Positions 1 through 61,654 of a stretch of 64,000 bases of DNA are shown one piece after another. A program made the translations under genes and the position numbers. How positions within the stretch are numbered: position 1 is the first letter of the stretch; every line of letters begins with the position of its first letter. Under the pieces are notes generated by a model that did not search any database, was not told where the DNA came from, and saw only the letters and a program-made list of their open reading frames with translations. Source of the DNA: Escherichia coli (lineage in GTDB: Bacteria > Pseudomonadota > Gammaproteobacteria > Enterobacterales > Enterobacteriaceae); NCBI RefSeq assembly GCF_003790525.1, contig NZ_CP033635.1; one strand, given 5' to 3'.

Positions 1-1
1 A

Positions 2-3000
2 ACAACCACCATCAAAAATGGCGGTGAGCAAAGAGTATATGAGAGCCGTGCGCTGGACACTACGATTGAAGGCGGAACTCAGTCTCTGAATAGTAATTCA
101 ACGGCAAAAAATACGCAGATCTATTCTGGTGGTACGCAAATTGTTGATTACACCAGCACCTCGGATGTTATTGAAATTTATTCCGGTGGCGTGCTTGATG
201 TTAGAGGTGGTATGGCAACAAATGTTACTCAGCACGATGGAGCCGCTTTAAAAGTAACGACTTACGATTTGACGGTGAGCGGTACGAATAGTGAAGGGGC
301 ATTCTCCATCCACAATAACGTGGCAGACAATGTGTTGCTGGAAAACGGTGGTCATTTAGACGTATATGGTTCGGCAACCAGGACGATAATTAAAGATAAA
401 GGAACAATGTCAGTTTTAACGAATGCTAAAGCTGATGCGACCCGAATAGATAATGGCGGGGTTATGGATGTCGCCGGAAACGCGACCAATACCATAATCA
501 ATGGTGGTACACAGAATATTAATAATCATGGTATTGCCACTGGCACCAATATCAACAGTGGAACGCAAAATATCAAGAGCGGCGGGAAAGCTGACACGAC
601 AAATATATCCTCCGGGAGCCGGCAGATTGTTGAGAAAGATGGTACGGCAACTGGCAGCAATATTAGCGCTGGAGGCTCGCTGATTGTCTATACCGGCGGT
701 ATTGCACATGGGGTTAACCAGGAGACGGGCAGTGCTTTAGTTGCCAACACGGGCGCAGGGACTGATATCGAAGGATACAACAAGCTCTCTCGCTTCACTA
801 TTATCGGAGGAGAGGCTAATTATGTTGTGCTGGAAAATACCGGCGAACTGACGGTAGTGGCTAAAACCTCGGCGAAAAATACTACCATTGATGCTGGCGG
901 TAAGCTGATTGTCCAGAAGGAGGCTAAAACAGATAGCACCAGACTTAATAATGGCGGCGTTCTGGAGGTTCAGGACGGTGGTGAGGCTAAGCATGTTGAG
1001 CAACAATCCGGCGGCGCATTAATTGCTTCCACGACCTCCGGAACACTTATCGAAGGAACCAACAGTTATGGTGATGCTTTCTACATCAGGAATTCAGAAG
1101 CTAAAAATGTAGTGCTGGAAAACGCTGGCTCATTAACAGTCGTCACTGGTTCCCGGGCAGTTGACACGATTATTAATGCCAACGGCAAAATGGATGTTTA
1201 TGGAAAAGATGTTGGTACTGTACTTAATAGTGCGGGTACCCAAACAATATATGCCAGTGCCACTTCTGAAAAAGCAAATATCAAAGGTGGCAAGCAAACG
1301 GTATATGGTTTAGCCACTGAGGCAAATATCGAAAGTGGTGAACAAATTGTTGATGGTGGGTCAACAGATAAAACGCACATCAAAGGCGGCACGCAAACCG
1401 TTCAGAATTATGGTAAGGCGATCAATACCGATATCGTCTCTGGCCTACAACAAATTATGGCAAACGGGACAGCGGAAGGTTCCATTATTAATGGCGGTTC
1501 ACAGGTAGTTAATGAGGGCGGTCTGGCTGAAAACTCGGTACTTAATGACGGCGGCACACTCGATGTGCGGGAGAAAGGCAGCGCTACGGGGATACAGCAG
1601 AGTAGCCAGGGCGCGTTGGTGGCAACCACCAGAGCGACGCGGGTCACAGGGACACGCGCTGATGGCGTCGCGTTCAGCATCGAGCAGGGTGCGGCGAACA
1701 ATATCCTGCTGACAAATGGCGGCGTGTTAACCGTGGAGTCAGACACCTCTTCCGCCAAAACACAGGTCAATGCGGGCGGGCGGGAGATCGTCAAAACAAA
1801 AGCCACTGCGACAGGCACGACGCTCACCGGCGGCGAACAAATCGTCGAGGGTGTGGCGAATGAGACAACGATTAACGACGGCGGAATACAAACAGTTTCG
1901 GCTAACGGTGAGGCAGTAAAAACAACGATTAATGAAGGCGGTACGCTGACAGTCAACGATAATGGCAAAGCGACAGATATCATCCAGAACAGCGGTGCCG
2001 CTCTCCAGACGAGCACGGCTAACGGTATTGAAATCAGCGGTACTCACCAGTACGGCACCTTTTCCATTGCCGGAAATTTAGCGACCAATGCGTTGCTGGA
2101 AAATGGCGGTAATTTATTGGTATTAGCAGGTACCGAAGCCCGTGACTCCACGGTTGGCAAGGGTGGTGCAATGCAAAACCTGGGTCAGGACTCCGCCACA
2201 AAGGTTAACTCTGGCGGGCAATATACCCTTGGGCGGTCAAAAGATGAGTTTCAGGCTCTGGCCCGGGCAGAAGATCTCCAGGTCGCTGGCGGGACGGCAA
2301 TCGTCTATGCAGGTACGCTGGCGGATGCATCGGTCAGTGGCGCGACAGGAAGCCTGTCGTTAATGACGCCACGGGATAATGTTACGCCAGTTAAACTCGA
2401 AGGGGCGATCCGGATTACCGATAGCGCGACATTAACTATCGGAAATGGCGTCGATACGACGCTTACCGACCTGACGGCTGCCAGCCGGGGCAGTGTCTGG
2501 CTTAACAGCAATAATTCCTGTGCAGGTACCAGCAACTGCGAATATAGAGTAAACAGTTTGCTCCTCAACGACGGTGATGTTTATTTATCAGCACAAACAG
2601 CAGCGCCTGCCACAACTAACGGTATCTACAATACGCTGACAACCAGTGAACTTTCCGGCAGCGGTAATTTCTACCTGCATACCAACGTTGCAGGCTCCCG
2701 GGGCGATCAACTGGTCGTCAACAACAACGCCACTGGTAATTTTAAAATCTTTGTTCAGGATACCGGCGTCAGCCCTCAGTCTGACGACGCGATGACGCTG
2801 GTGAAAACAGGGGGAGGGGATGCTTCGTTTACGCTGGGTAATACCGGCGGTTTCGTTGATCTTGGGACCTATGAGTATGTCCTGAAAAGCGACGGCAACA
2901 GCAACTGGAACCTGACCAATGATGTCAAACCCAACCCGGACCCCAACCCAAATCCGAAGCCGGATCCAAAACCAGACCCAAAACCGGATCCGAAACCAGA

Positions 3001-3955
3001 CCCGACTCCCGATCCAACGCCGACACCCGTCCCGGAGAAACGCATCACGCCTTCTACGGCAGCCGTACTCAATATGGCAGCAACATTACCGTTGGTCTTT
3101 GATGCTGAGCTAAACAGTATTCGCGAGCGGTTGAACATAATGAAAGCGAGTCCACACAACAATAATGTCTGGGGGACGACGTATAACACCCGTAATAATG
3201 TCACCACCGATGCGGGTGCCGGGTTTGAGCAGACGCTGACCGGAATGACGGTGGGGATCGATAGCCGTAATGATATTCCTGAGGGGATTGCGACGCTGGG
3301 CGCTTTTATGGGTTATTCCCATTCACATATCGGTTTTGATCGTGGAGGACATGGCAGTGTGGGCAGTTATTCTCTGGGGGGCTATGCCAGCTGGGAACAT
3401 GAAAGTGGTTTCTATCTGGACGGTATCGTGAAGCTGAACCGCTTTGAAAGTAACGTAGCCGGTAAAATGAGCAGCGGTGGAGCCGCCAACGGCAGTTATC
3501 GCAGCAACGGGCTGGGCGGTCACATTGAAACCGGGATGCGATTTACCGATGGTAACTGGAACCTGACGCCGTATGCATCGTTAACGGGGTTCACCGCTGA
3601 TAACCCCGAATATCATTTATCCAATGGCATGGAATCGAAATCAGTCGATACCCGCAGTATATATCGTGAACTGGGCGCAACGCTGAGTTACAACATGCGT
3701 CTGGGGAACGGCATGGAAGTTGAGCCGTGGCTGAAGGCGGCTGTGCGCAAAGAATTTGTCGATGATAACCGGGTGAAAGTGAATAATGACGGTAATTTTG
3801 TCAATGATTTGTCGGGCAGACGTGGAATATACCAGGCAGGTATTAAAGCCTCATTCAGCAGTTCGTTAAGCGGGAATCTCGGGGTGGGGTATAGCCATGG
3901 TGCCGGTGTGGAATCCCCGTGGAACGCAGTGGCTGGTGTGAACTGGTCGTTCTGA
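2..3955 (+). CDS. AIDA-I-type autotransporter adhesin, 5'-partial (reading frame open to the window edge)
   Basis: Frame is open from position 2 with no stop, so the gene starts upstream of the window. Repetitive Gly/Thr/Asn-rich beta-helix-like passenger, Pro-rich PNPDPK linker, C-terminal beta-barrel domain ending in ...NWSF. By position next to ssrA it may be the ypjA ortholog, but that is inferred from context only. Confidence 0.8.
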   Translation, partial: TTTIKNGGEQRVYESRALDTTIEGGTQSLNSNSTAKNTQIYSGGTQIVDYTSTSDVIEIYSGGVLDVRGGMATNVTQHDGAALKVTTYDLTVSGTNSEGAFSIHNNVADNVLLENGGHLDVYGSATRTIIKDKGTMSVLTNAKADATRIDNGGVMDVAGNATNTIINGGTQNINNHGIATGTNINSGTQNIKSGGKADTTNISSGSRQIVEKDGTATGSNISAGGSLIVYTGGIAHGVNQETGSALVANTGAGTDIEGYNKLSRFTIIGGEANYVVLENTGELTVVAKTSAKNTTIDAGGKLIVQKEAKTDSTRLNNGGVLEVQDGGEAKHVEQQSGGALIASTTSGTLIEGTNSYGDAFYIRNSEAKNVVLENAGSLTVVTGSRAVDTIINANGKMDVYGKDVGTVLNSAGTQTIYASATSEKANIKGGKQTVYGLATEANIESGEQIVDGGSTDKTHIKGGTQTVQNYGKAINTDIVSGLQQIMANGTAEGSIINGGSQVVNEGGLAENSVLNDGGTLDVREKGSATGIQQSSQGALVATTRATRVTGTRADGVAFSIEQGAANNILLTNGGVLTVESDTSSAKTQVNAGGREIVKTKATATGTTLTGGEQIVEGVANETTINDGGIQTVSANGEAVKTTINEGGTLTVNDNGKATDIIQNSGAALQTSTANGIEISGTHQYGTFSIAGNLATNALLENGGNLLVLAGTEARDSTVGKGGAMQNLGQDSATKVNSGGQYTLGRSKDEFQALARAEDLQVAGGTAIVYAGTLADASVSGATGSLSLMTPRDNVTPVKLEGAIRITDSATLTIGNGVDTTLTDLTAASRGSVWLNSNNSCAGTSNCEYRVNSLLLNDGDVYLSAQTAAPATTNGIYNTLTTSELSGSGNFYLHTNVAGSRGDQLVVNNNATGNFKIFVQDTGVSPQSDDAMTLVKTGGGDASFTLGNTGGFVDLGTYEYVLKSDGNSNWNLTNDVKPNPDPNPNPKPDPKPDPKPDPKPDPTPDPTPTPVPEKRITPSTAAVLNMAATLPLVFDAELNSIRERLNIMKASPHNNNVWGTTYNTRNNVTTDAGAGFEQTLTGMTVGIDSRNDIPEGIATLGAFMGYSHSHIGFDRGGHGSVGSYSLGGYASWEHESGFYLDGIVKLNRFESNVAGKMSSGGAANGSYRSNGLGGHIETGMRFTDGNWNLTPYASLTGFTADNPEYHLSNGMESKSVDTRSIYRELGATLSYNMRLGNGMEVEPWLKAAVRKEFVDDNRVKVNNDGNFVNDLSGRRGIYQAGIKASFSSSLSGNLGVGYSHGAGVESPWNAVAGVNWSF

Positions 3956-4115
3956 CCATCAACGAAAAAGCCCACATCTGTGGGCTTTCATATCACCAGG
4001 AGCCGCGGCTCCTTTGCGTATCCTTTTTTGTCTCCTCACCGTCTGGTCGGTGTCCTGCTGAGACTGCTAACTTCCTGTTTTTATTGGTGTTGTCCTTACA
4101 CCGTCCAATCATGAT

Positions 4116-4478
4116 TGGTGGAGCTGGCGGGAGTTGAACCCGCGTCCGAAATTCCTACATCCTCGGTACTACATGCTTAGTCAGTCTTTACATTCGCTTG
4201 CCAGCTGCGGACGGACACGCCACTAACAAACTAGCCTGATTAAGTTTTAACGCTTCAACCCCAGGCAGGGCTTCCACGCGATCTCTTTTGGGTTTGACCT
4301 CTCTTGATCCCCGTCCTAAGAGCGGAGGCTAGGGAGAGAGGGCTCTAAGCAGGTTATTAAGCTGCTAAAGCGTAGTTTTCGTCGTTTGCGACTATTTTTT
4401 GCGGCTTTTTACGAGGCCAACCGCCCCTCGGCATGCACCTTGGGTTTCGCAAATCCCGTCGAATCCAGAATCAGCCCC
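4116..4478 (-). ncRNA. ssrA: tmRNA (SsrA), 363 nt
   Basis: Reverse complement reads GGGGCTGATTCTGGATTCGACGGG ... CCAGCTCCACCA and contains the tag reading frame encoding ANDENYALAA; sits downstream of smpB as expected. Confidence 0.95.
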
Positions 4479-9960: not shown

Positions 9961-9990
9961 ATGGCCGACGCGAAGTCGGCCATTTTTTTA
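9961..9990. terminator. intrinsic terminator shared by grpE and the convergent acidic ORF
   Basis: ATGGCCGACGCGAAGTCGGCCAT hairpin followed by TTTTTTT on the plus strand; the stop codon of the minus-strand ORF lies in the T-run. Confidence 0.75.
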
Positions 9991-10629
9991 GCTTAAAAAA
10001 TCCTGTACTTCCAGCCACGGCGTGTTGAAATCATCTATTTTTTTATATTCGTTCATTGGCAGAACGACCACGTTATAGGTGTCAGATCCTTCATTCAGAT
10101 CAAAAATCTGAAAGCCCCTTTTATTGAGTTCGGTTTGGATGCGTTCAAAGATTTCGTCAAGGTAACGGTCTCCGGCTTCACAGACATCGGAGATTTCATC
10201 CTCTTGGGTTATTTCGACAAGAAGACTCCTTAATTCCTCAGAAGCTGTCAGGTTTTTTGTGAGCTCATAAAAGCGATCTGCAGCAAAATTAGCCAGCTCA
10301 CCTTCTTCATCTTCACCTTTCCAGTCAACGAGTTGAATTAGTCCTTCACCGCGCAGAACCTGTAAAAATGCCTGCGCCAGGTCATGATTTCCGAGATCGC
10401 CTCCACTGCAATCGAGAACGTCTTGTAATCCATATTCGTCTTCATCTTCGTCTTCAAAGATTTCAGGTTGCGTCGAAAGTTGAGAGAAAATAGTGGGCCA
10501 TAAGGTTGGGGTGTGCTGTAAAAAAACGCTGGCGACGACGTTGAGATCGTCTGCAAAATCCTTATCCCATTCAATTAAATAATCTTCTGACATAACATCA
10601 ATATCCTTTCCGAATGTTTGAAAAGACAT
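9988..10629 (-). CDS. hypothetical highly acidic cytoplasmic protein (213 aa), unrecognised, probably accessory
   Basis: Intact ORF; 51 Asp+Glu versus about 13 Lys+Arg; EDEDEDE run; no signal peptide or TM segment; no motif I recognise. Not part of the K-12 grpE-yfjD arrangement as I recall it. Start may be 10629 (no Shine-Dalgarno) or the Met at 10593 (AAGGA about 10 nt upstream). Confidence 0.6.
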   Translation of the reverse strand: MSFQTFGKDIDVMSEDYLIEWDKDFADDLNVVASVFLQHTPTLWPTIFSQLSTQPEIFEDEDEDEYGLQDVLDCSGGDLGNHDLAQAFLQVLRGEGLIQLVDWKGEDEEGELANFAADRFYELTKNLTASEELRSLLVEITQEDEISDVCEAGDRYLDEIFERIQTELNKRGFQIFDLNEGSDTYNVVVLPMNEYKKIDDFNTPWLEVQDFLS

Positions 10630-26363: not shown

Positions 26364-26424
26364 CCTAAAGAATCAAGACGATCCGGTACGCGTGATTTTC
26401 TTTTCACATTAATCTGGTCAATAA

Positions 26425-26460
26425 CCTTGAATAATTGAGGGATGACCTCATTTAATCTCC
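26425..26460 (+). promoter_or_regulatory. sigma32 heat-shock promoter of clpB
   Basis: CCTTGAATAA ... GACCTCATTTAAT, resembling the sigma32 -35/-10 consensus. Confidence 0.55.
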
Positions 26461-26492
26461 AGTAGCAACTTTGATCCGTTATGGGAGGAGTT

Positions 26493-29066
26493 ATGCGTCT
26501 GGATCGTCTTACTAATAAATTCCAGCTTGCTCTTGCCGATGCCCAATCACTTGCACTCGGGCACGACAACCAATTCATCGAACCACTTCATTTAATGAGC
26601 GCCCTGCTGAATCAGGAAGGGGGTTCGGTTAGTCCTTTATTAACATCCGCTGGCATAAATGCTGGCCAGTTGCGCACAGATATCAATCAGGCATTAAATC
26701 GTTTACCGCAGGTTGAAGGTACTGGTGGTGATGTCCAGCCATCACAGGATCTGGTGCGCGTTCTTAATCTTTGCGACAAGCTGGCGCAAAAACGTGGTGA
26801 TAACTTTATCTCGTCAGAACTGTTCGTTCTGGCGGCACTTGAGTCTCGCGGCACGCTGGCCGACATCCTGAAAGCAGCAGGGGCGACCACCGCCAACATT
26901 ACTCAAGCGATTGAACAAATGCGTGGAGGTGAAAGCGTGAACGATCAAGGTGCTGAAGACCAACGTCAGGCTTTGAAAAAATATACCATCGACCTTACCG
27001 AACGAGCCGAACAGGGTAAACTCGATCCGGTGATTGGTCGTGATGAAGAAATTCGCCGTACCATTCAGGTGCTGCAACGTCGTACTAAAAATAACCCGGT
27101 ACTGATTGGTGAACCAGGCGTCGGTAAGACTGCCATCGTTGAAGGTCTGGCGCAGCGTATTATCAACGGCGAAGTGCCCGAAGGGTTGAAAGGCCGCCGC
27201 GTACTGGCGCTGGATATGGGCGCGCTGGTGGCTGGGGCGAAATATCGCGGTGAGTTTGAAGAACGTTTAAAAGGCGTACTTAACGATCTTGCCAAACAGG
27301 AAGGCAACGTCATCCTGTTTATCGACGAATTACATACCATGGTCGGCGCGGGTAAAGCCGATGGCGCAATGGACGCCGGAAACATGCTGAAACCGGCGCT
27401 GGCGCGTGGTGAATTGCACTGCGTAGGTGCCACGACGCTTGACGAATATCGCCAGTACATCGAAAAAGATGCTGCGCTGGAACGTCGTTTCCAGAAAGTG
27501 TTTGTTGCCGAGCCTTCTGTTGAAGATACGATTGCGATTCTGCGTGGCCTGAAAGAACGTTACGAGCTGCACCACCATGTGCAAATTACTGACCCGGCAA
27601 TTGTTGCAGCGGCGACGTTGTCTCATCGCTACATTGCTGACCGTCAGCTGCCAGATAAAGCCATCGACCTGATCGATGAGGCAGCATCCAGCATTCGTAT
27701 GCAGATTGACTCAAAACCAGAAGAACTCGACCGACTCGATCGCCGTATCATCCAGCTCAAACTGGAACAACAGGCGTTAATGAAAGAGTCTGATGAAGCC
27801 AGTAAAAAACGTCTGGATATGCTCAATGAAGAACTGAGCGACAAAGAACGTCAGTACTCCGAGTTAGAAGAAGAGTGGAAAGCAGAGAAAGCATCGCTTT
27901 CTGGTACGCAGACCATTAAAGCGGAACTGGAACAGGCGAAAATCGCTATTGAACAGGCTCGCCGTGTGGGTGACCTGGCGCGGATGTCTGAACTGCAATA
28001 CGGCAAAATCCCGGAACTGGAAAAGCAACTGGAAGCCGCAACGCAGCTCGAAGGCAAAACTATGCGTCTGTTGCGTAATAAAGTGACCGATGCCGAAATT
28101 GCTGAAGTGCTGGCGCGTTGGACGGGGATTCCGGTTTCTCGCATGATGGAAAGCGAGCGCGAAAAACTGCTGCGTATGGAGCAAGAACTGCACCATCGCG
28201 TTATTGGTCAGAACGAAGCGGTTGATGCGGTATCTAACGCTATTCGTCGTAGCCGTGCGGGGCTGGCGGATCCAAATCGCCCGATTGGTTCATTCCTGTT
28301 CCTCGGCCCAACGGGTGTGGGGAAAACTGAGCTTTGTAAGGCGCTGGCGAACTTTATGTTTGATAGCGACGAGGCGATGGTCCGTATCGATATGTCCGAG
28401 TTTATGGAGAAACACTCGGTGTCTCGTCTGGTTGGTGCGCCTCCGGGATATGTCGGTTATGAAGAAGGTGGCTACCTGACCGAAGCGGTGCGTCGTCGTC
28501 CGTATTCCGTCATCCTGCTGGATGAAGTGGAAAAAGCGCATCCGGATGTCTTCAACATTCTGTTGCAGGTACTGGATGATGGGCGTCTGACTGACGGGCA
28601 GGGGAGAACGGTCGACTTCCGTAATACGGTTGTCATTATGACCTCTAACCTCGGTTCCGATTTGATTCAGGAACGCTTCGGTGAACTGGATTATGCGCAC
28701 ATGAAAGAGCTGGTGCTCGGTGTGGTAAGCCATAACTTCCGTCCGGAATTCATTAACCGTATCGATGAAGTGGTGGTCTTCCATCCGCTGGGTGAACAGC
28801 ACATTGCGTCGATTGCGCAGATTCAGTTGAAACGTCTGTATAAACGTCTGGAAGAACGTGGTTATGAAATCCACATTTCTGACGAGGCGCTGAAACTGCT
28901 GAGCGAGAACGGTTACGATCCGGTCTATGGTGCACGTCCTCTGAAACGTGCAATTCAGCAGCAGATCGAAAACCCGCTGGCACAGCAAATACTGTCTGGT
29001 GAATTGGTTCCGGGTAAAGTGATTCGCCTGGAAGTTAATGAAGACCGGATTGTCGCCGTCCAGTAA
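26493..29066 (+). CDS. clpB: disaggregase chaperone ClpB
   Basis: 857-aa ORF from [35 protein letters not shown]... with two AAA+ modules. Confidence 0.97.
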
Positions 29067-29210: not shown

Positions 29211-29299
29211 CGCCACCACTGACACAGAACAACGGCAAACACGCCGCCGGGTCAGCGGGGTTCTCCTGAGAATCTCAACAGAGAAAGCAAAAATAAATG

Positions 29300-29509: not shown

Positions 29510-31051
<1,542 letters not shown>

Positions 31052-31212: not shown

Positions 31213-31405
31213 CTTGCTGGTTTGTGAGTGAAAGTCACCTGCCTTAATATCTCAAAACTCATCTTCGGGTGACGTTTGAGATATTTGCTCTTTAAAAATC
31301 TGGATCAAGCTGAAAATTGAAACACTGAACAACGAAAGTTGTTCGTGAGTCTCTCAAATTTTCGCAACACGATGATGAATCGCAAGAAACATCTTCGGGT
31401 TGTGA

Positions 31406-51659: not shown

Positions 51660-52615
51660 TGAAGCAACTTTGGTTTGCCATGTCATTAGTGACAGGTAGC
51701 CTGTTATTCTCTGCTAACGCCTCGGCCACTCCCGCGTCCGGGGCGTTATTACAGCAGATGAACCTGGCCAGTCAGTCACTGAATTACGAGCTGTCATTCA
51801 TCAGCATCAATAAACAGGGTGTTGAGTCTCTGCGTTATCGACATGCACGCCTCGATAACCGTCCTCTTGCACAATTGTTGCAAATGGATGGCCCGCGCCG
51901 GGAAGTGGTACAGCGCGGCAATGAGATCAGCTATTTTGAACCGGGACTTGAACCGTTCACGCTTAATGGCGATTACATTGTTGATTCTCTGCCATCGCTC
52001 ATCTATACCGATTTCAAACGCCTTTCTCCTTACTACGACTTTATCTCCGTCGGGCGCACGCGTATTGCTGATCGTCTTTGCGAAGTTATTCGCGTGGTTG
52101 CCCGAGATGGTACACGCTACAGCTACATCGTGTGGATGGACACCGAATCGAAATTACCGATGAGGGTTGATCTCCTTGATCGCGATGGTGAAACGCTGGA
52201 ACAATTTCGCGTGATTGCTTTTAATGTCAATCAGGATATCAGCAGCAGTATGCAGACGCTGGCGAAGGCAAATTTGCCGCCGTTGCTTTCTGTTCCTGTA
52301 GGTGAAAAAGCTAAATTCAGCTGGACGCCAACCTGGTTGCCACAGGGTTTTAGCGAAGTTTCCAGTAGTCGACGTCCGCTACCGACGATGGACAACATGC
52401 CTATTGAATCACGTCTCTATTCCGACGGATTATTCAGCTTCTCGGTAAACGTTAACCGCGCTACGCCATCGAGCACCGATCAGATGTTGCGCACCGGACG
52501 CAGAACCGTCAGTACAAGCGTACGTGATAACGCCGAAATCACCATTGTCGGTGAACTGCCGCCGCAAACGGCGAAACGCATTGCCGAGAATATTAAGTTC
52601 GGGGCAGCGCAATGA
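51659..52615 (+). CDS. rseB: sigmaE regulatory protein RseB
   Basis: 318-aa secreted ORF; operon position. Confidence 0.95.
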   Translation: MKQLWFAMSLVTGSLLFSANASATPASGALLQQMNLASQSLNYELSFISINKQGVESLRYRHARLDNRPLAQLLQMDGPRREVVQRGNEISYFEPGLEPFTLNGDYIVDSLPSLIYTDFKRLSPYYDFISVGRTRIADRLCEVIRVVARDGTRYSYIVWMDTESKLPMRVDLLDRDGETLEQFRVIAFNVNQDISSSMQTLAKANLPPLLSVPVGEKAKFSWTPTWLPQGFSEVSSSRRPLPTMDNMPIESRLYSDGLFSFSVNVNRATPSSTDQMLRTGRRTVSTSVRDNAEITIVGELPPQTAKRIAENIKFGAAQ

Positions 52616-53091
52616 TCAAAGAGTGGGCTACCGTCGTCTCCTGGGAAAACGGGCAGGCGCTGGTTAGTTGTGATGTTAAAGCCTCATGCAGCAGCTGCGC
52701 TTCACGCGCCGGTTGCGGTAGCCGCGTGTTGAATAAACTTGGCCCGCAAACCACGCATACCATTGTCGTACCCTGTGATGAACCGTTAGTGCCGGGGCAA
52801 AAAGTAGAATTAGGAATCGCCGAAGGCAGCCTGCTTAGCTCCGCATTACTGGTTTATATGTCGCCGTTGGTGGGACTATTCCTCATCGCTTCACTATTTC
52901 AGCTACTCTTTGCTTCAGATATTGCAGCATTATGCGGTGCGATTCTCGGTGGCGTTGGTGGATTCCTGATTGCACGTGGCTGCTCTCGAAAGTTTGCTGC
53001 CCGGTCTGAATGGCAACCGATCATCTTAAGCGTGGCCTTGCCGCCTGGCCTTGTGCGATTTGAAACATCTTCGGAAGACGCGAGCCAGTGA
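52612..53091 (+). CDS. rseC: RseC (SoxR-reducing system component)
   Basis: 159-aa membrane ORF with CSSCASRAGC motif. Confidence 0.9.
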   Translation: MIKEWATVVSWENGQALVSCDVKASCSSCASRAGCGSRVLNKLGPQTTHTIVVPCDEPLVPGQKVELGIAEGSLLSSALLVYMSPLVGLFLIASLFQLLFASDIAALCGAILGGVGGFLIARGCSRKFAARSEWQPIILSVALPPGLVRFETSSEDASQ

Positions 53092-53287
53092 TTTCACTGG
53101 CTTTGTTGCATTTTGCATAACAAATGCGAGGACGTTTCCAGATACCCAATCCATACGGTATGAACATTTCCTCGCCTCAATGTTGTAGTGTAGAATGCGG
53201 CGTTTCTATTAATACAGACGTTAAGCTCAGAACAGCGACTTCTAAAAGCCTGGTTAACCGGGCATTAAGGCACAATAATCATACTTT

Positions 53288-55087
<1,800 letters not shown>

Positions 55088-56120: not shown

Positions 56121-56319
56121 GAATTATTTATGAGATAAATCTCCCGTGGCTAACGACATCCCCCGTCGTTGTGTATAGAATATTCCCCCGAAGTTTAAGG
56201 TTGGCACCTCCAGGTTGCCACGGCACACGAAACAGCGTTGGTCCCCATATACCGGTAAACTGAAACTGCAGCGAAGCAGTTAGCAGAACCATGTATATCA
56301 GGTCTGTTTCGTGTGCTGA

Positions 56320-57932
<1,613 letters not shown>

Positions 57933-58683: not shown

Positions 58684-59415
58684 ATGGCTGAATTACTGTT
58701 AGGCGTCAACATTGACCATATTGCAACGCTGCGTAACGCACGCGGTACTGCTTACCCAGATCCGGTGCAGGCGGCGTTTATTGCTGAGCAGGCGGGAGCG
58801 GACGGCATTACCGTGCATTTACGTGAAGATCGCCGCCACATTACCGACCGCGATGTGCGCATCCTGCGTCAGACGCTGGATACCCGCATGAATCTGGAGA
58901 TGGCGGTGACCGAAGAGATGCTGGCGATCGCCGTTGAGACGAAGCCACATTTTTGCTGTCTGGTACCGGAAAAGCGTCAGGAAGTAACAACCGAAGGCGG
59001 CCTGGACGTCGCTGGACAGCGTGAAAAAATGCGCGATGCCTGCAAACGTCTGGCGGAGGCCGGGATCCAGGTTTCTCTGTTTATCGACGCCGATGAAGAG
59101 CAGATCAAAGCTGCGGCAGAGGTTGGCGCACCGTTTATCGAGATCCACACAGGTTGCTATGCTGATGCCAAAACTGACGCCGAACAGGCGCAAGAGCTGG
59201 CGCGTATCGCCAAAGCCGCGACCTTTGCCGCTAGTCTCGGTCTGAAAGTTAACGCTGGTCACGGTCTGACCTATCACAACGTGAAAGCCATTGCCGCCAT
59301 CCCTGAGATGCATGAACTGAATATCGGTCATGCCATTATTGGTCGTGCAGTGATGACTGGACTGAAAGATGCGGTGGCAGAAATGAAGCGTTTGATGCTG
59401 GAAGCGCGTGGCTAA
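58684..59415 (+). CDS. pdxJ: pyridoxine 5'-phosphate synthase
   Basis: 243-aa [56 protein letters not shown]... Confidence 0.97.
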
Positions 59416-59795
59416 TGGCAATATTAGGTTTAGGTACGGATATTGTGGAGATCGCTCGCATTGAATCGGTGATCGCCCGATCCGGTGAGCGCCTGGCACG
59501 CCGCGTATTAAGCGATAACGAATGGGCAATCTGGAAAACGCACCACCAGCCGGTGCGTTTTCTGGCGAAGCGTTTTGCTGTGAAAGAAGCGGCGGCAAAA
59601 GCGTTTGGCACCGGGATCCGCAATGGTCTGGCGTTTAATCAATTTGAAGTATTCAATGATGAGCTCGGCAAACCACGGCTACGGCTATGGGGTGAGGCAT
59701 TAAAACTGGCGGAAAAGCTCGGCGTTGTAAATATGCATGTAACGCTGGCAGATGAACGCCACTATGCTTGTGCCACGGTAATTATTGAAAGTTAA
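59415..59795 (+). CDS. acpS: holo-ACP synthase
   Basis: 126-aa [40 protein letters not shown]... Confidence 0.97.
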
Positions 59796-60215
59796 AAAAA
59801 TACCGTTCTCTTTATAAAGTAAAACCCCCGAACTGGTAAGGAACGGGGGTTTTACTTTACAACTTTAATTTTGTGCAGCACACGATTCCAACGGAAATGA
59901 TTATGGATCAATTTAGTTGACCTGTACAAGCAACTTGCAATCTCTGACATAAAAAACGCGAGCCTTTACGAAGAAATCGACATTGATGAAAAGATTAACG
60001 TGACCGCTTTTTGATAAGTACATTAAAATCGGTTTCGTTATTGGCAATTTTGCTGTGCTTTACACCATGCCACTGAATTCCCCCATTGAAACGAGTGGTG
60101 TCGTCAAAGCTCTGGTGTGGAGTGCAGCACTCGATTCCAATAACTCGCACGTTCAGTTTTGGGGTGATGTAAGGGCTAATCTGAACGGCTGCATTCCTTG
60201 TTTAAGGAAAAACGA

Positions 60216-60296
60216 ATGACTGATTGCCGATACCTGATTAAACGGGTTATCAAAATCATCATTGCTGTTTTACAGCTGCTCCTTTTGTTCTTATAA
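60216..60296 (+). CDS. shoB: type I toxin ShoB (26-aa hydrophobic peptide)
   Basis: AAGGA Shine-Dalgarno then ATG...TAA encoding MTDCRYLIKRVIKIIIAVLQLLLLFL, in the acpS-yfhL intergenic region where shoB/ohsC lies in K-12. Below the ORF track's size cutoff. Confidence 0.75.
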   Translation: MTDCRYLIKRVIKIIIAVLQLLLLFL

Positions 60297-60489
60297 CACA
60301 AGGAAACGTACTTAAGGTGCGTCCGGTGAACCAATCGGACGCGCCTTTAATAACTATAAATAAGTGTCTGGGCAGATACTATATAAATTTACTTAGTGAA
60401 TGATTATGCTAATTTCATCATTTAAATAAATATAATAGCGTTAAGGTTTCTCTATAAAATAATTAACACTCTACTTCCAGAGCAGAATA

Positions 60490-60786
<297 letters not shown>

Positions 60787-60805
60787 TTATACGCGCATTC
60801 TTTAC

Positions 60806-61654
60806 TCAGACCAGTTTTTTCACCAGCGCTTCACTATGACGAATACGTTCTGGTGCCAGTTCCAGATCCTGCTGAATCAGCGCAATGAACAGCAAATCCG
60901 TTAACATTCCCTGCGCGTGACAAGCAGAGATTGAAGCACTGTTTGTCGCTTGTTCTTCGGCAATGGTATACAGGCAATGAGAAGCACGCTGTTGCAGGGC
61001 ATTGGGAGTAAAGCCGGTAATCGCCAGCACTTTTCCGCCCACTCGCAGCATCTCATCTGCCGCCAGGTTTAACTCGCGTCGTACACCGGTGTAGGAAATG
61101 GCTAATAACAGATCGTCAGGGGACGACGCCTGTACTGTAGCGAGTAGCGCATGCATATCGCGCACTGCGGCAGCATTGAAGCCAATCTTCATCAGCTTCC
61201 AGGCAAAGTTTTGCGCCACCAGACCCGAAGCGCCAATACCGGTCAGAATTATCCGCCGCGCAGAGCGCAACATTGTTACGCATTCATGCAGTTTCTCTTC
61301 ACTATTAACGTTTAGCGTTGCGTACATGGCGGCAGTATTTTCTTTAATCAGTTTTTCGCCGACCAGCCGTAACGGATCATCACCGCGGATTTGGTTATGA
61401 ATGGGCACGGAGGGAGATTCCGGCTGGCTTGCCAGCGCTTCACTCAACGCCAACTTAAGTGCCGGAAAACCTTTATAGCCGAGTTTTTGCGCGAACTTCA
61501 CGACGCTGGACTGACTGACTCCGGCTTCGTTGGCCAGTTGCTGAGAGCTTAAATGGCGCGCCGTATCAGGTTGTAGCAGCAGATAATCCGCCAGTTTTTT
61601 ATCACTCTGGGCAAGCCCCTGGTAACGCTGACGGATACGAAGTAAGCCGTTCAT
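60806..61654 (-). CDS. yfhH: RpiR/MurR-family transcriptional regulator (HTH + SIS domains), YfhH
   Basis: ORF with N-terminal HTH and C-terminal SIS domain; start at MNGLL inferred. Confidence 0.75.
   Translation of the reverse strand: MNGLLRIRQRYQGLAQSDKKLADYLLLQPDTARHLSSQQLANEAGVSQSSVVKFAQKLGYKGFPALKLALSEALASQPESPSVPIHNQIRGDDPLRLVGEKLIKENTAAMYATLNVNSEEKLHECVTMLRSARRIILTGIGASGLVAQNFAWKLMKIGFNAAAVRDMHALLATVQASSPDDLLLAISYTGVRRELNLAADEMLRVGGKVLAITGFTPNALQQRASHCLYTIAEEQATNSASISACHAQGMLTDLLFIALIQQDLELAPERIRHSEALVKKLV

What the first reader, a model, noticed from the sequence alone, without database searches (positions are those of the whole stretch)
59796..60489. Type I toxin-antitoxin locus (shoB with presumed ohsC antisense RNA) missed by the ORF track
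A long, AT-rich intergenic region of about 690 bp between acpS and yfhL contains a Shine-Dalgarno-preceded 26-codon ORF (60216..60296) encoding MTDCRYLIKRVIKIIIAVLQLLLLFL. I recognise this as the ShoB membrane-depolarising toxin; it differs from my recollection of the K-12 peptide (…LQLILLFL) at one position. In K-12 the ohsC small RNA is transcribed divergently nearby and base-pairs with the shoB mRNA; I cannot place its exact ends from sequence alone.
Basis: partly seen in the sequence, partly recalled or inferred. Interest (0 to 1): 0.45.

Follow-up and report, generated by a model that had tools for sequence, protein, structure and literature searches.

The report
shoB–ohsC toxin–antitoxin locus, alternative pairing allele
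This is the already well-known E. coli ShoB membrane-toxin gene with its OhsC antisense-RNA antidote. The one unusual point is that this strain carries an alternative form in which the matching sequences of the RNA and its target have both been swapped, a two-form polymorphism also found in the sister species E. albertii.

Summary
The 694-bp, 38% GC spacer between acpS and yfhL holds shoB (60216-60296, +; ShoB with I22L versus K-12). It also holds the divergent OhsC sRNA, which I placed at 59892→59816 (−) (Rfam RF02495, 101.7 bits, threshold 50). The window is E. coli, 19 mismatches in 64 kb from strain SC516, where RefSeq annotates shoB but not ohsC. The locus itself is therefore already known.

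The new point is the pairing site. The OhsC 5' end (59873-59892) and its target in the shoB 5' UTR (60122-60141) both differ from K-12 at 7 of 8 central positions. They still match each other at 19 of 20 pairs, with one central U·U mismatch.

In 5,426 complete E. coli genomes the two blocks are concordant:
- W/W in 1,599 genomes
- K/K in 3,069
- K'/K in 506
- discordant in 1

Both alleles also occur in E. albertii, and the 155-bp regulatory segment beside the block groups by allele rather than by species. The held literature noted variation here but left retention of pairing unresolved. Whether the alleles are functionally orthogonal is untested.

The parts
59816..59892 (-). ohsC gene: 77-nt OhsC antitoxin sRNA, 5' end at 59892 and 3' end near 59816
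   Evidence: Rfam RF02495, 101.7 bits (gathering score 50), model 1-77. It is co-linear with the K-12 ncRNA ohsC b4608.
59873..59892 (-). OhsC 5' pairing domain, W allele (RNA 5'-GUUGGAAUCGUGUGCUGCAC)
   Evidence: Complementary to 60122-60141 at 18 Watson-Crick pairs, 1 G·U and 1 U·U. It differs from K-12 at 7 of 8 central positions.
59816..59862 (.). 15-bp GC-rich hairpin that acts as the terminator of ohsC (−) and probably also of acpS (+)
   Evidence: Fold. Partial Rfam hit on the + strand, 34 bits. PMC11264685 also notes the near-palindrome.
59900..59929 (-). ohsC promoter: −35 TTGTAC (59929→59924), 18-nt spacer, −10 CATAAT (59905→59900)
   Evidence: Promoter scan and direct sequence read. 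The hexamers match those tabulated for E. coli in PMC11264685, where TTGTAC is the 33% variant. The −10 position predicts a start at about 59892.
60000..60029 (+). shoB promoter: −35 GTGACC, 18-nt spacer, −10 TAAAAT
   Evidence: Promoter scan and sequence read. The hexamers are the same as in PMC11264685 Table 2, conserved in over 99% of strains.
60036..60350 (+). shoB mRNA, about 315 nt with a 5' UTR of about 180 nt. Both ends are inferred.
   Evidence: Ends are inferred from the promoter and terminator positions. The length agrees with the ~320-nt full-length transcript reported for K-12 (PMC5668327). The fold is strongly structured: MFE −116.6 kcal/mol, z = −7.19.
60122..60141 (+). OhsC target site in the shoB 5' UTR, W allele (GUGCAGCACUCGAUUCCAAU), 75-94 nt upstream of the AUG
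   Evidence: The central block 60130-60137 is an island of 7/8 differences from K-12. Upstream of it, 60048-60121 has 1 difference in 74 nt.
60194..60209 (+). Local hairpin that sequesters the Shine-Dalgarno sequence: UUCCUU (60194-60199) pairs with AAGGAA (60204-60209)
   Evidence: MFE pair table. Mean P(unpaired) of the SD is 0.17 in the full-length RNA.
60216..60296 (+). shoB coding sequence, 26 codons plus stop: ShoB I22L variant (WP_000128777.1)
60314..60347 (+). shoB terminator hairpin, 14 bp
   Evidence: MFE of the mRNA. The simple terminator scan did not call it because the T-run is short.
59893..60047 (.). Dimorphic regulatory segment: ohsC promoter, spacer, shoB promoter and the first 12 nt of the mRNA. 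Here it is the W haplotype.
   Evidence: It differs by 18-21% from the K haplotypes of E. coli but by only 9.6-11.4% from the W haplotype of E. albertii.

Best explanation

**Toxin transcript.** shoB is transcribed rightward from a GTGACC/TAAAAT promoter as a highly structured mRNA of about 315 nt. Its Shine-Dalgarno sequence is locked in a local hairpin. Its first ~32 nt pair with the region that contains the antitoxin site.

**Antitoxin.** ohsC is transcribed leftward, about 140 bp upstream of the shoB start, as a 77-nt sRNA. The first 20 nt of OhsC pair with the shoB 5' UTR 75-94 nt upstream of the start codon.

**Mode of action.** This part is inferred by analogy with K-12 shoB-ohsC, tisB-istR-1 and zorO-orzO. 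The duplex would block ribosome loading on the processed, translatable mRNA and be cut by RNase III, which keeps the 26-aa membrane-depolarising peptide unmade.

**The allele.** This strain carries the 'W' recognition allele. Relative to K-12 ('K'), 7 of 8 central nucleotides are replaced on both partners, so complementarity is kept (19 of 20 pairs, one fixed central U·U mismatch). W and K are two old, co-adapted haplotypes that segregate in E. coli and also in E. albertii.

**Status of each step.**
- Shown here: sequence identity, anatomy, complementarity, and the population and cross-species distribution.
- Taken from the literature on K-12: toxicity, repression, 5' processing and RNase III cleavage.
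- Inferred: that these hold for the W allele, and that W and K do not cross-react.
For: **Identity**
- The ShoB ORF differs from K-12 by I22L only and shares its synteny.
- RefSeq names the identical protein ShoB.
- ohsC is found by Rfam at 101.7 bits.
- The promoter hexamers and the RBS equal those tabulated for more than 2,000 E. coli strains in PMC11264685.

**Pairing**
- There are 6 Watson-Crick pair replacements between K-12 and the window. In the formal count against K', the commonest allele, 5 of these are scored as changed on both sides.
- On 6 distinct alleles, 99.2% of cells are paired, against 22-49% when the partner is slid. No shuffle out of 500 reached the observed value.
- Predicted duplex energies are W/W −34.2 and K/K −41.4 kcal/mol, against −21.5 and −23.0 for the two cross pairs.

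**Population (5,426 complete E. coli genomes)**
- Both W blocks occur in 1,599 genomes, both K blocks in 3,069 and K'/K in 506. W-ohsC with K-shoB occurs in 1, and K-ohsC with W-shoB in 0.
- A further 70 W genomes differ only by a terminal SNP.

**Cross-species**
- E. albertii genomes (99.2-99.6% identical to the type-strain flank; E. coli is 89%) carry either W/W with the same U·U mismatch, or K'-like pairs.
- The flanking regulatory segment groups by allele rather than by species.

**Mechanism**
- The mRNA fold has z = −7.19. It contains the SD hairpin and the helix between the 5' end and the target, and that helix is predicted in all Escherichia homologs.
- Literature: the ~320-nt form is inactive and the ~280-nt processed form is active (PMC5668327).
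- Literature: RNase III cuts within the shoB/OhsC duplex in vivo in MG1655 (PMC6212723).
- Literature: the OhsC 5' end is predicted to pair over 19 nt (PMC3919570).
- Literature: for zor-orz, 15 continuous or 17 discontinuous pairs are needed, and a 3-nt central swap abolishes repression.
Against: - There are no expression, toxicity or repression data for this strain or for any W-allele pair. OhsC from EDL933 (a W strain) has been cloned, but only as a negative control and as a chimera scaffold.
- The W duplex has a central U·U mismatch and is about 7 kcal/mol weaker than K/K.
- The transcript ends are inferred, not mapped.
- Thermodynamic modelling of 5'-truncated mRNAs only modestly opened the target (P(unpaired) 0.16→0.33) and did not open the SD. 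The activation step is therefore not reproduced in silico.
- The near-absence of discordant haplotypes could be plain linkage, since the two blocks lie 250 bp apart.
- One discordant isolate (Z1323CEC0015) exists with shoB intact, so a mismatch is not lethal.
- NCBIfam has no HMM that reaches this 26-aa peptide.
Confidence: 0.9

Rival explanations
1. The concordance of the two blocks is only hitch-hiking. W and K are two linked haplotypes, and the matching change at both sites needs no selection for RNA-RNA pairing. It could arise, for example, from a one-off templated copying event between two 20-bp direct repeats.
For: The blocks lie 250 bp apart on the same strand as direct repeats. The whole 59893-60047 segment is dimorphic too, so linkage is tight. 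Only one recombinant was found, and it is viable.
Against: - Linkage cannot explain why the same 8-nt replacement sits in both places, with the shoB block an island inside nearly invariant sequence (1 difference in the 74 nt upstream).
- Ongoing copying between the repeats is contradicted by the A/T difference between the two W copies. That difference is fixed in every W genome typed (0 repaired on either side) and is also present in E. albertii.
- Other lineage-specific single changes keep a pair through G·U or A-U: K', ET82, SCPM, and E. albertii CGCATCCT.
Confidence: 0.15
2. The W-allele locus is a decaying or silent copy. The central mismatch and the altered ohsC −35 region mean the antitoxin no longer controls the toxin, or the toxin is no longer made.
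For: The W duplex has a U·U mismatch in its centre and is weaker than K/K. The −35 is the minority TTGTAC variant, and the region that PMC11264685 reports to overlap the second CpxR box (CB2) is changed. The full-length W mRNA buries the target more deeply (P(unpaired) 0.16, against 0.32 in K).
Against: - The ORF, the SD, both −10 boxes, the shoB −35 and both terminators are intact.
- The same W arrangement is kept in about 1,670 E. coli genomes of unrelated lineages (O157:H7, ST131 EC958, UM146) and in two other Escherichia lineages.
- 18 Watson-Crick pairs plus one G·U, with one internal mismatch, exceeds the 17-discontinuous-pair threshold that suffices for OrzO.
Confidence: 0.07
3. The small ORF is a chance ORF, and the 'ohsC' hit is only the acpS terminator hairpin.
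For: Short ORFs are abundant: 39 of at least 20 aa in 2.5 kb. The 3' half of the Rfam model also matches the + strand because the hairpin is nearly palindromic.
Against: - The Rfam match covers the full model 1-77, including the non-palindromic 5' domain, at twice the threshold.
- A conserved promoter sits at the right distance.
- The ORF is conserved with synonymous and conservative changes across five Escherichia lineages.
- The 20-nt complementarity has a chance expectation of 0.00 in 64 kb.
Confidence: 0.01

Closest known systems
shoB-ohsC of E. coli K-12 MG1655 (b4687/b4608; Fozo et al. 2008, cited through PMC5668327 and PMC3919570; Rfam RF02495)
   Same: It is the orthologous locus, in the same place between acpS and yfhL. 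It has the same divergent layout, promoter hexamers, RBS, 26-aa peptide (1 substitution), terminators, long structured 5' UTR and position of the pairing site.
   Different: Seven of the 8 central nucleotides of the recognition duplex are replaced on both RNAs. The duplex has one internal U·U mismatch instead of 19 perfect pairs. The 155-bp regulatory segment between the genes is about 20% diverged, including the ohsC −35 and the region reported to hold the second CpxR box.
zorO-orzO / zorP-orzP of E. coli O157:H7 (PMC3919570, PMC5397157)
   Same: It has a divergent sRNA whose 5' 18-20 nt pair far upstream in a ~175-180-nt 5' UTR. Specificity is set by a short central variable block (V1). The 5' UTR is processed for activity, and repression depends on RNase III.
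   Different: In zor-orz the two specificities are tandem paralogs within one genome, where discrimination prevents cross-talk. Here the two specificities are alleles of a single-copy locus that segregate among strains and species. The toxin family is unrelated (29 aa ZorO). ohsC scores only 21.9 bits against the OrzO-P model, whose threshold is 60.
tisB-istR-1 of E. coli (standby-site paradigm; cited in PMC7708055, PMC11264685)
   Same: The antitoxin binds about 100 nt upstream of a sequestered RBS. The primary transcript is inert and the 5'-processed form is active. The duplex is cut by RNase III.
   Different: The sequences are unrelated, and tisB is under LexA control. A standby site has not been demonstrated for shoB, and here it is only inferred.

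Membership tests
ShoB-OhsC type I toxin-antitoxin locus | 26-aa hydrophobic ORF homologous to ShoB | tested here: met
   25 of 26 residues are identical to K-12 ShoB. The peptide is identical to RefSeq WP_000128777.1, named ShoB.
ShoB-OhsC type I toxin-antitoxin locus | Chromosomal position between acpS and yfhL | tested here: met
ShoB-OhsC type I toxin-antitoxin locus | Divergently transcribed sRNA that matches the ohsC covariance model above its gathering score | tested here: met
   RF02495, 101.7 bits against 50, model 1-77, − strand 59816-59892.
ShoB-OhsC type I toxin-antitoxin locus | About 19 nt of complementarity between the OhsC 5' end and the shoB 5' UTR | tested here: met
   18 Watson-Crick pairs, 1 G·U and 1 U·U over 20 nt, ΔG −34.2 kcal/mol. 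The chance expectation is 0.00. The sequence of the duplex is not the K-12 one.
ShoB-OhsC type I toxin-antitoxin locus | Conserved promoters and RBS (shoB GTGACC/TAAAAT; ohsC TTGTAA or TTGTAC with CATAAT; RBS AAGGAA) | tested here: met
   compared with PMC11264685 Table 2.
ShoB-OhsC type I toxin-antitoxin locus | Protein-family HMM hit | tested here: inconclusive
   NCBIfam returned no family for the 26-aa peptide. The peptide is too short for Pfam's profile_search.
ShoB-OhsC type I toxin-antitoxin locus | Both transcripts expressed: a ~77-nt OhsC, and ~320-nt and ~280-nt shoB forms | not testable with these tools
   Reported only for K-12 (PMC5668327). No transcript data exist for this strain.
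ShoB-OhsC type I toxin-antitoxin locus | Peptide toxic on overproduction, and toxicity relieved by OhsC | not testable with these tools
   Shown for K-12 (Fozo 2008, through). Untested for the I22L peptide or the W pairing allele.
Type I TA with upstream (standby-type) antitoxin site (tisB/istR-1, zorO/orzO class) | Antitoxin site far upstream of a structurally sequestered RBS | tested here: met
   The site lies 75-94 nt upstream of the AUG. The SD is paired in the UUCCUU/AAGGAA hairpin with P(unpaired) 0.17. These are predictions only.
Type I TA with upstream (standby-type) antitoxin site (tisB/istR-1, zorO/orzO class) | 5' processing frees the site and activates translation | tested here: inconclusive
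   The 5' nt 2-32 pair with nt 78-109 in all homologs. In-silico truncation raised target accessibility only from 0.16 to 0.33 and did not open the SD.
Type I TA with upstream (standby-type) antitoxin site (tisB/istR-1, zorO/orzO class) | RNase III cleavage of the sRNA-mRNA duplex | not testable with these tools
   Reported in vivo for MG1655 shoB/OhsC (PMC6212723). Unknown for the mismatched W duplex.

The most novel reading that the evidence does not exclude
W and K are two functionally orthogonal recognition codes of a single-copy type I toxin-antitoxin locus. Each OhsC silences only its own shoB. The codes have persisted as co-adapted haplotypes in at least E. coli and E. albertii since about the time those species split. 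Hybrid haplotypes would be selected against because a non-cognate OhsC cannot restrain ShoB. That would make this a natural, allelic counterpart of the zorO/zorP discrimination, and a small-scale example of a trans-species polymorphism in an RNA-RNA interaction.
Probability: 0.35. Interest if true: 0.6.

Novelty: already known. Interest (0 to 1): 0.35.

Why it matters
For annotation, the result is routine. A known 26-codon toxin gene and its sRNA sit in a spacer that length-filtered ORF callers skip, and RefSeq annotates the sRNA in K-12 but not in this strain.

The extra result addresses a point that the 2024 E. coli survey (PMC11264685) left open. That survey saw large variation in the shoB-ohsC pairing regions but could not say whether pairing is retained. 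Here pairing is retained within each genome: 19-20 of 20 pairs in about 5,240 of 5,426 genomes, and 1 discordant genome. The variation resolves into two deep allelic classes that are shared with E. albertii.

If the classes prove orthogonal, they offer three things:
- a ready-made natural pair of specificity variants for working out the pairing rules of OhsC;
- a test of whether a central mismatch modulates RNase III cleavage;
- a case study of how an RNA antitoxin and its target change recognition sequence without passing through a toxic intermediate.

Tried and rejected
- **Primary papers not held.** Fozo et al. 2008 (PMC2597788) and Fozo 2012 (10.4161/rna.22568) are not in the library. Mapped transcript ends and the original experiments are therefore cited second-hand.
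- I replaced it with a degenerate DNA pattern, which found only five Escherichia species representatives. Two of those loci were cut before ohsC, and I recovered them through the neighbouring YfhL protein.
- **No HMM.** NCBIfam has no hit for ShoB.
- **Third covarying site dropped.** I considered mRNA nt 9 opposite nt 102 (G-C in W, A-U in K-12). I dropped it because the ancestral 5' end (GGCG) already pairs by G·U, so only one side changed in W.
- **In-silico processing unhelpful.** Truncations of 28-50 nt did not give a clear opening of the SD or the target, so I do not use them as support.
- **No repaired W duplex.** I looked for W genomes with a repaired, perfect duplex and found none on either side.
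- **Indel variant is a singleton.** I suspected that the 2-nt insertion seen in strain FCI1 was a common third allele, but it occurs in one genome.
- **Not plasmid-borne.** All 5,451 matches lie on chromosomes.
- **No selection claim from recombinant rarity.** I did not infer selection from the rarity of recombinants, because no null model for crossovers within 250 bp of roughly 20%-diverged sequence was available.
- **CpxR boxes.** Only one CpxR-like box was found at 2 or fewer mismatches (60049-60063). I could not place the published CB2 from the text alone.

Full report
**1. The observation**

The spacer 59796-60489 is 694 bp and 37.9% GC, against 50.7% for the window. It lies between acpS (59415-59795, +) and yfhL (60490-60750, −). 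The ORF at 60216-60296 reads MTDCRYLIKRVIKIIIAVLQLLLLFL. An AAGGAA sits at 60204-60209, six bases before the ATG.

A 26-codon ORF is not remarkable in itself, since 39 ORFs of at least 20 aa overlap 59000-61500. The spacer, however, matches 5,425 of 5,426 complete E. coli genomes, always on the chromosome, and the ORF is annotated there as shoB.

The window as a whole is E. coli. It is collinear with strain SC516 (chicken, China) and differs at 19 of 64,000 positions.

**2. The antitoxin**

Rfam's ohsC model (RF02495) matches 59816-59892 on the − strand over its full length. It scores 101.7 bits against a gathering score of 50.

- The gene is co-linear with the K-12 ncRNA ohsC (b4608).
- A promoter, TTGTAC-18-CATAAT, lies at 59929→59900 and places the start at about 59892.
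- These hexamers, and the shoB hexamers GTGACC-18-TAAAAT at 60000-60029, are the ones tabulated for more than 2,000 E. coli strains in PMC11264685.
- The OhsC terminator hairpin (59816-59862) is nearly palindromic. It also matches the model partially on the + strand (34 bits), so it probably terminates acpS as well.
- RefSeq annotates ohsC in K-12 but not in SC516.

**3. Anatomy of the toxin transcript**

From its promoter and the 14-bp terminator hairpin at 60314-60347, the shoB mRNA should run from about 60036 to about 60350. That is roughly 315 nt, which agrees with the ~320-nt full-length transcript reported for K-12 (PMC5668327).

The RNA folds far better than shuffled controls: −116.6 kcal/mol, z = −7.19. 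Two features stand out.

- The SD AAGGAA pairs with UUCCUU (60194-60199) in a local hairpin.
- The first ~32 nt pair with nt 78-109, which contain the OhsC site. This long-range helix is predicted in every Escherichia homolog examined.

This fits the published statement that only a 5'-processed ~280-nt form is translated. My in-silico truncations opened the site only modestly and did not open the SD, so I treat that step as literature-based and not as shown here.

**4. The pairing site is not the K-12 one**

The divergence from K-12 (about 9% over the spacer) is concentrated in two places.

- The first is a segment that runs from the OhsC 5' end through both promoters (59873-60047).
- The second is an 8-nt island at 60130-60137 in the shoB 5' UTR. 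Upstream of it, 60048-60121 differs at 1 of 74 positions.

On the + strand, K-12 reads GTGCAGCATGCACCCTCAA at both sites. The window reads GTGCAGCACACGATTCCAA at ohsC and GTGCAGCACTCGATTCCAA at shoB. Seven of 8 central positions are therefore replaced in both partners.

This gives 6 Watson-Crick pair replacements and one U·U mismatch, with 19 of 20 positions still paired. The 20-mer occurs only at these two places in the window, against a chance expectation of 0.00.

On six distinct alleles, 99.2% of cells are paired, against 22-49% for slid partners. In that formal count, made against K' (the commonest allele), 5 pairs are scored as changed on both sides, a value reached by 0 of 500 shuffles. 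This covariation is essentially one evolutionary event plus several single G·U or A-U adjustments.

Predicted duplex energies:

| OhsC | shoB target | ΔG (kcal/mol) |
|---|---|---|
| W | W | −34.2 |
| K | K | −41.4 |
| W | K | −21.5 |
| K | W | −23.0 |

In the related zor-orz system, repression needs 15 continuous or 17 discontinuous pairs, and a 3-nt central swap abolishes it (PMC3919570). By that yardstick the W pair should work and the cross pairs should not. This is inference.

**5. Population test**

I used chimeric 68-nt megablast queries in which each half can seed only if its 8-nt block is exact. Counts are complete E. coli genomes carrying both named blocks.

| ohsC block | shoB block | Genomes |
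|---|---|---|
| W | W | 1,598 (+1 unjoined) |
| K | K | 3,050 (+19 unjoined) |
| K' (one G·U) | K | 506 |
| W | K | 1 |
| K | W | 0 |

- No genome has repaired the U·U mismatch on either side. With those zeros the marginal counts close exactly: ohsC-W 1,692, shoB-W 1,603, ohsC-K 3,084 and shoB-K 3,691.
- Of the 93 ohsC-W genomes without an exact shoB-W block, 70 carry only a terminal G→T next to an intact block, one has a 2-nt insertion and one is the recombinant.
- The recombinant, Z1323CEC0015, has a crossover in the spacer and an intact shoB.
- W strains include O157:H7, ST131 EC958 and UM146, so the allele is not confined to one lineage.

Because the sites are 250 bp apart, concordance alone does not prove selection. 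What needs explaining is the identical replacement at two sites, one of them an island in conserved sequence.

**6. Beyond E. coli**

A degenerate search for the ShoB N-terminus found the locus in E. albertii, E. whittamii and three other Escherichia species representatives. All of these carry K-like blocks.

Sampling more genomes through their YfhL proteins showed that E. albertii carries both forms.

- These genomes are 99.2-99.6% identical to the type-strain flank, while E. coli is 89%.
- The W form has the ohsC block identical to the window's, a shoB target that differs by one A→G which keeps a G·U pair, and the same A/T mismatch.
- The K'-like form has ohsC CGCACCCT and shoB CGCATCCT.
- A further lineage 3-4% from E. 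coli in its flanks also has W.

In the regulatory segment 59893-60047, with both pairing blocks excluded, a neighbour-joining tree splits by allele and not by species.

| Comparison | Divergence |
|---|---|
| W against K, within a species | 15-21% |
| E. coli W against E. albertii W | 9.6-11.4% |
| acpS and yfhL-yfhH flanks, E. coli against E. albertii | 8-11% |
| K-class, between species | 2-12% |

The dimorphism is thus at least as old as the E. coli / E. albertii split, or it has been exchanged between species long ago. The present data do not separate these two possibilities.

**7. Comparison with what is known**

The locus is the known shoB-ohsC system.

- ShoB is reported as toxic and depolarising, and OhsC as its repressor.
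- The 5' end of OhsC is predicted to pair over 19 nt.
- RNase III cleavage sites have been detected in the duplex region in MG1655.
- CpxR binds the intergenic region.
[quoted passage not shown] - I found no paper in the held library that describes the concordant two-allele structure or its presence in E. albertii. Fozo 2008 and the 2012 review were not available.

**8. Verdict**

The finding is real and correctly interpreted, and as a locus it is already known. The added value is that ohsC is now placed, the anatomy is given in window coordinates, and this strain is shown to carry one of two old, internally compensated recognition alleles. Functional orthogonality and any selective maintenance remain to be tested.

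Noticed in passing
window 59816-59892; SC516 annotation (L002): RefSeq/PGAP annotates the shoB CDS in the near-identical strain SC516 but has no ohsC feature there. There is a locus_tag gap (RS07015) between shoB and acpS. K-12 RefSeq does carry ohsC.
   Followed up: partly
L012 (NZ_CP148423.1, E. coli Z1323CEC0015): This is the only genome of 5,426 with a discordant pair, W-type ohsC with a K-type shoB target. It arose by a crossover in the ohsC-shoB spacer, and shoB and its promoter are intact. It is a natural test strain for cross-reactivity.
   Followed up: partly
L009 vs L024/L025; segment equivalent to window 59873-60047: The K'-class regulatory segment is only 1.7-2.3% different between an E. 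coli strain (222) and E. albertii, although the flanking genes differ by about 10%. The cause is either strong constraint or relatively recent exchange of the K' haplotype between species.
   Followed up: no
L040, L043, L045: An Escherichia lineage 3-4% diverged from E. coli in yfhL-yfhH combines three features: the W allele, the E. albertii-like target variant GTGCGGCAC, and the ShoB variant KVVIAV seen in E. whittamii and E69. The locus therefore looks mosaic across species. I did not establish the species names.
   Followed up: partly
window 60049-60063 (− strand): There is a CpxR-like box, GTAAAGCACAGCAAA, with one mismatch to GTAAA-N5-GTAAA. It lies inside the first 30 nt of the shoB transcript and is identical in K-12. 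PMC11264685 reports that the second published CpxR box overlaps the ohsC −35, and that region is changed in the W haplotype (TTGTAC against TTGTAA, with changed neighbouring bases).
   Followed up: partly
window 9988-10593 (−): A 201-aa DUF6630-family gene sits between yfjD and grpE. I do not recall a gene there in K-12, so it may be a small accessory insertion.
   Followed up: no
window 1-4478: The tmRNA gene ssrA (4116-4478, −) is followed directly by the ypjA/EhaD autotransporter gene (1-3955, cut by the window edge). No prophage is integrated at ssrA in this strain. From memory, K-12 carries CP4-57 at that position.
   Followed up: no
window 29273-29278 and 30511-30547: Fourteen of the 19 differences between the window and strain SC516 cluster just upstream of, and inside, the 16S rRNA gene (29510-31051). 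This is the pattern expected from sequence heterogeneity or conversion among rrn operons.
   Followed up: no
window 52576-53406 (−), 56190-56404 (+), 26374-26512 (+), 31290-31398 (+): Other curated RNA elements in the window scored above their Rfam thresholds: AsrC antisense RNA opposite rseC (504.6 bits), the rncO leader of the rnc operon, RyfD upstream of clpB, and StyR-44 in the rrn spacer.
   Followed up: no
L047, L048 (E. coli M1/5, CREC7837); L013 (FCI1): Minor W-type target variants exist. A terminal G→T at the first duplex position occurs in 70 genomes. A 2-nt GC insertion inside the duplex occurs in one genome (FCI1), which also carries a ShoB substitution.
   Followed up: yes
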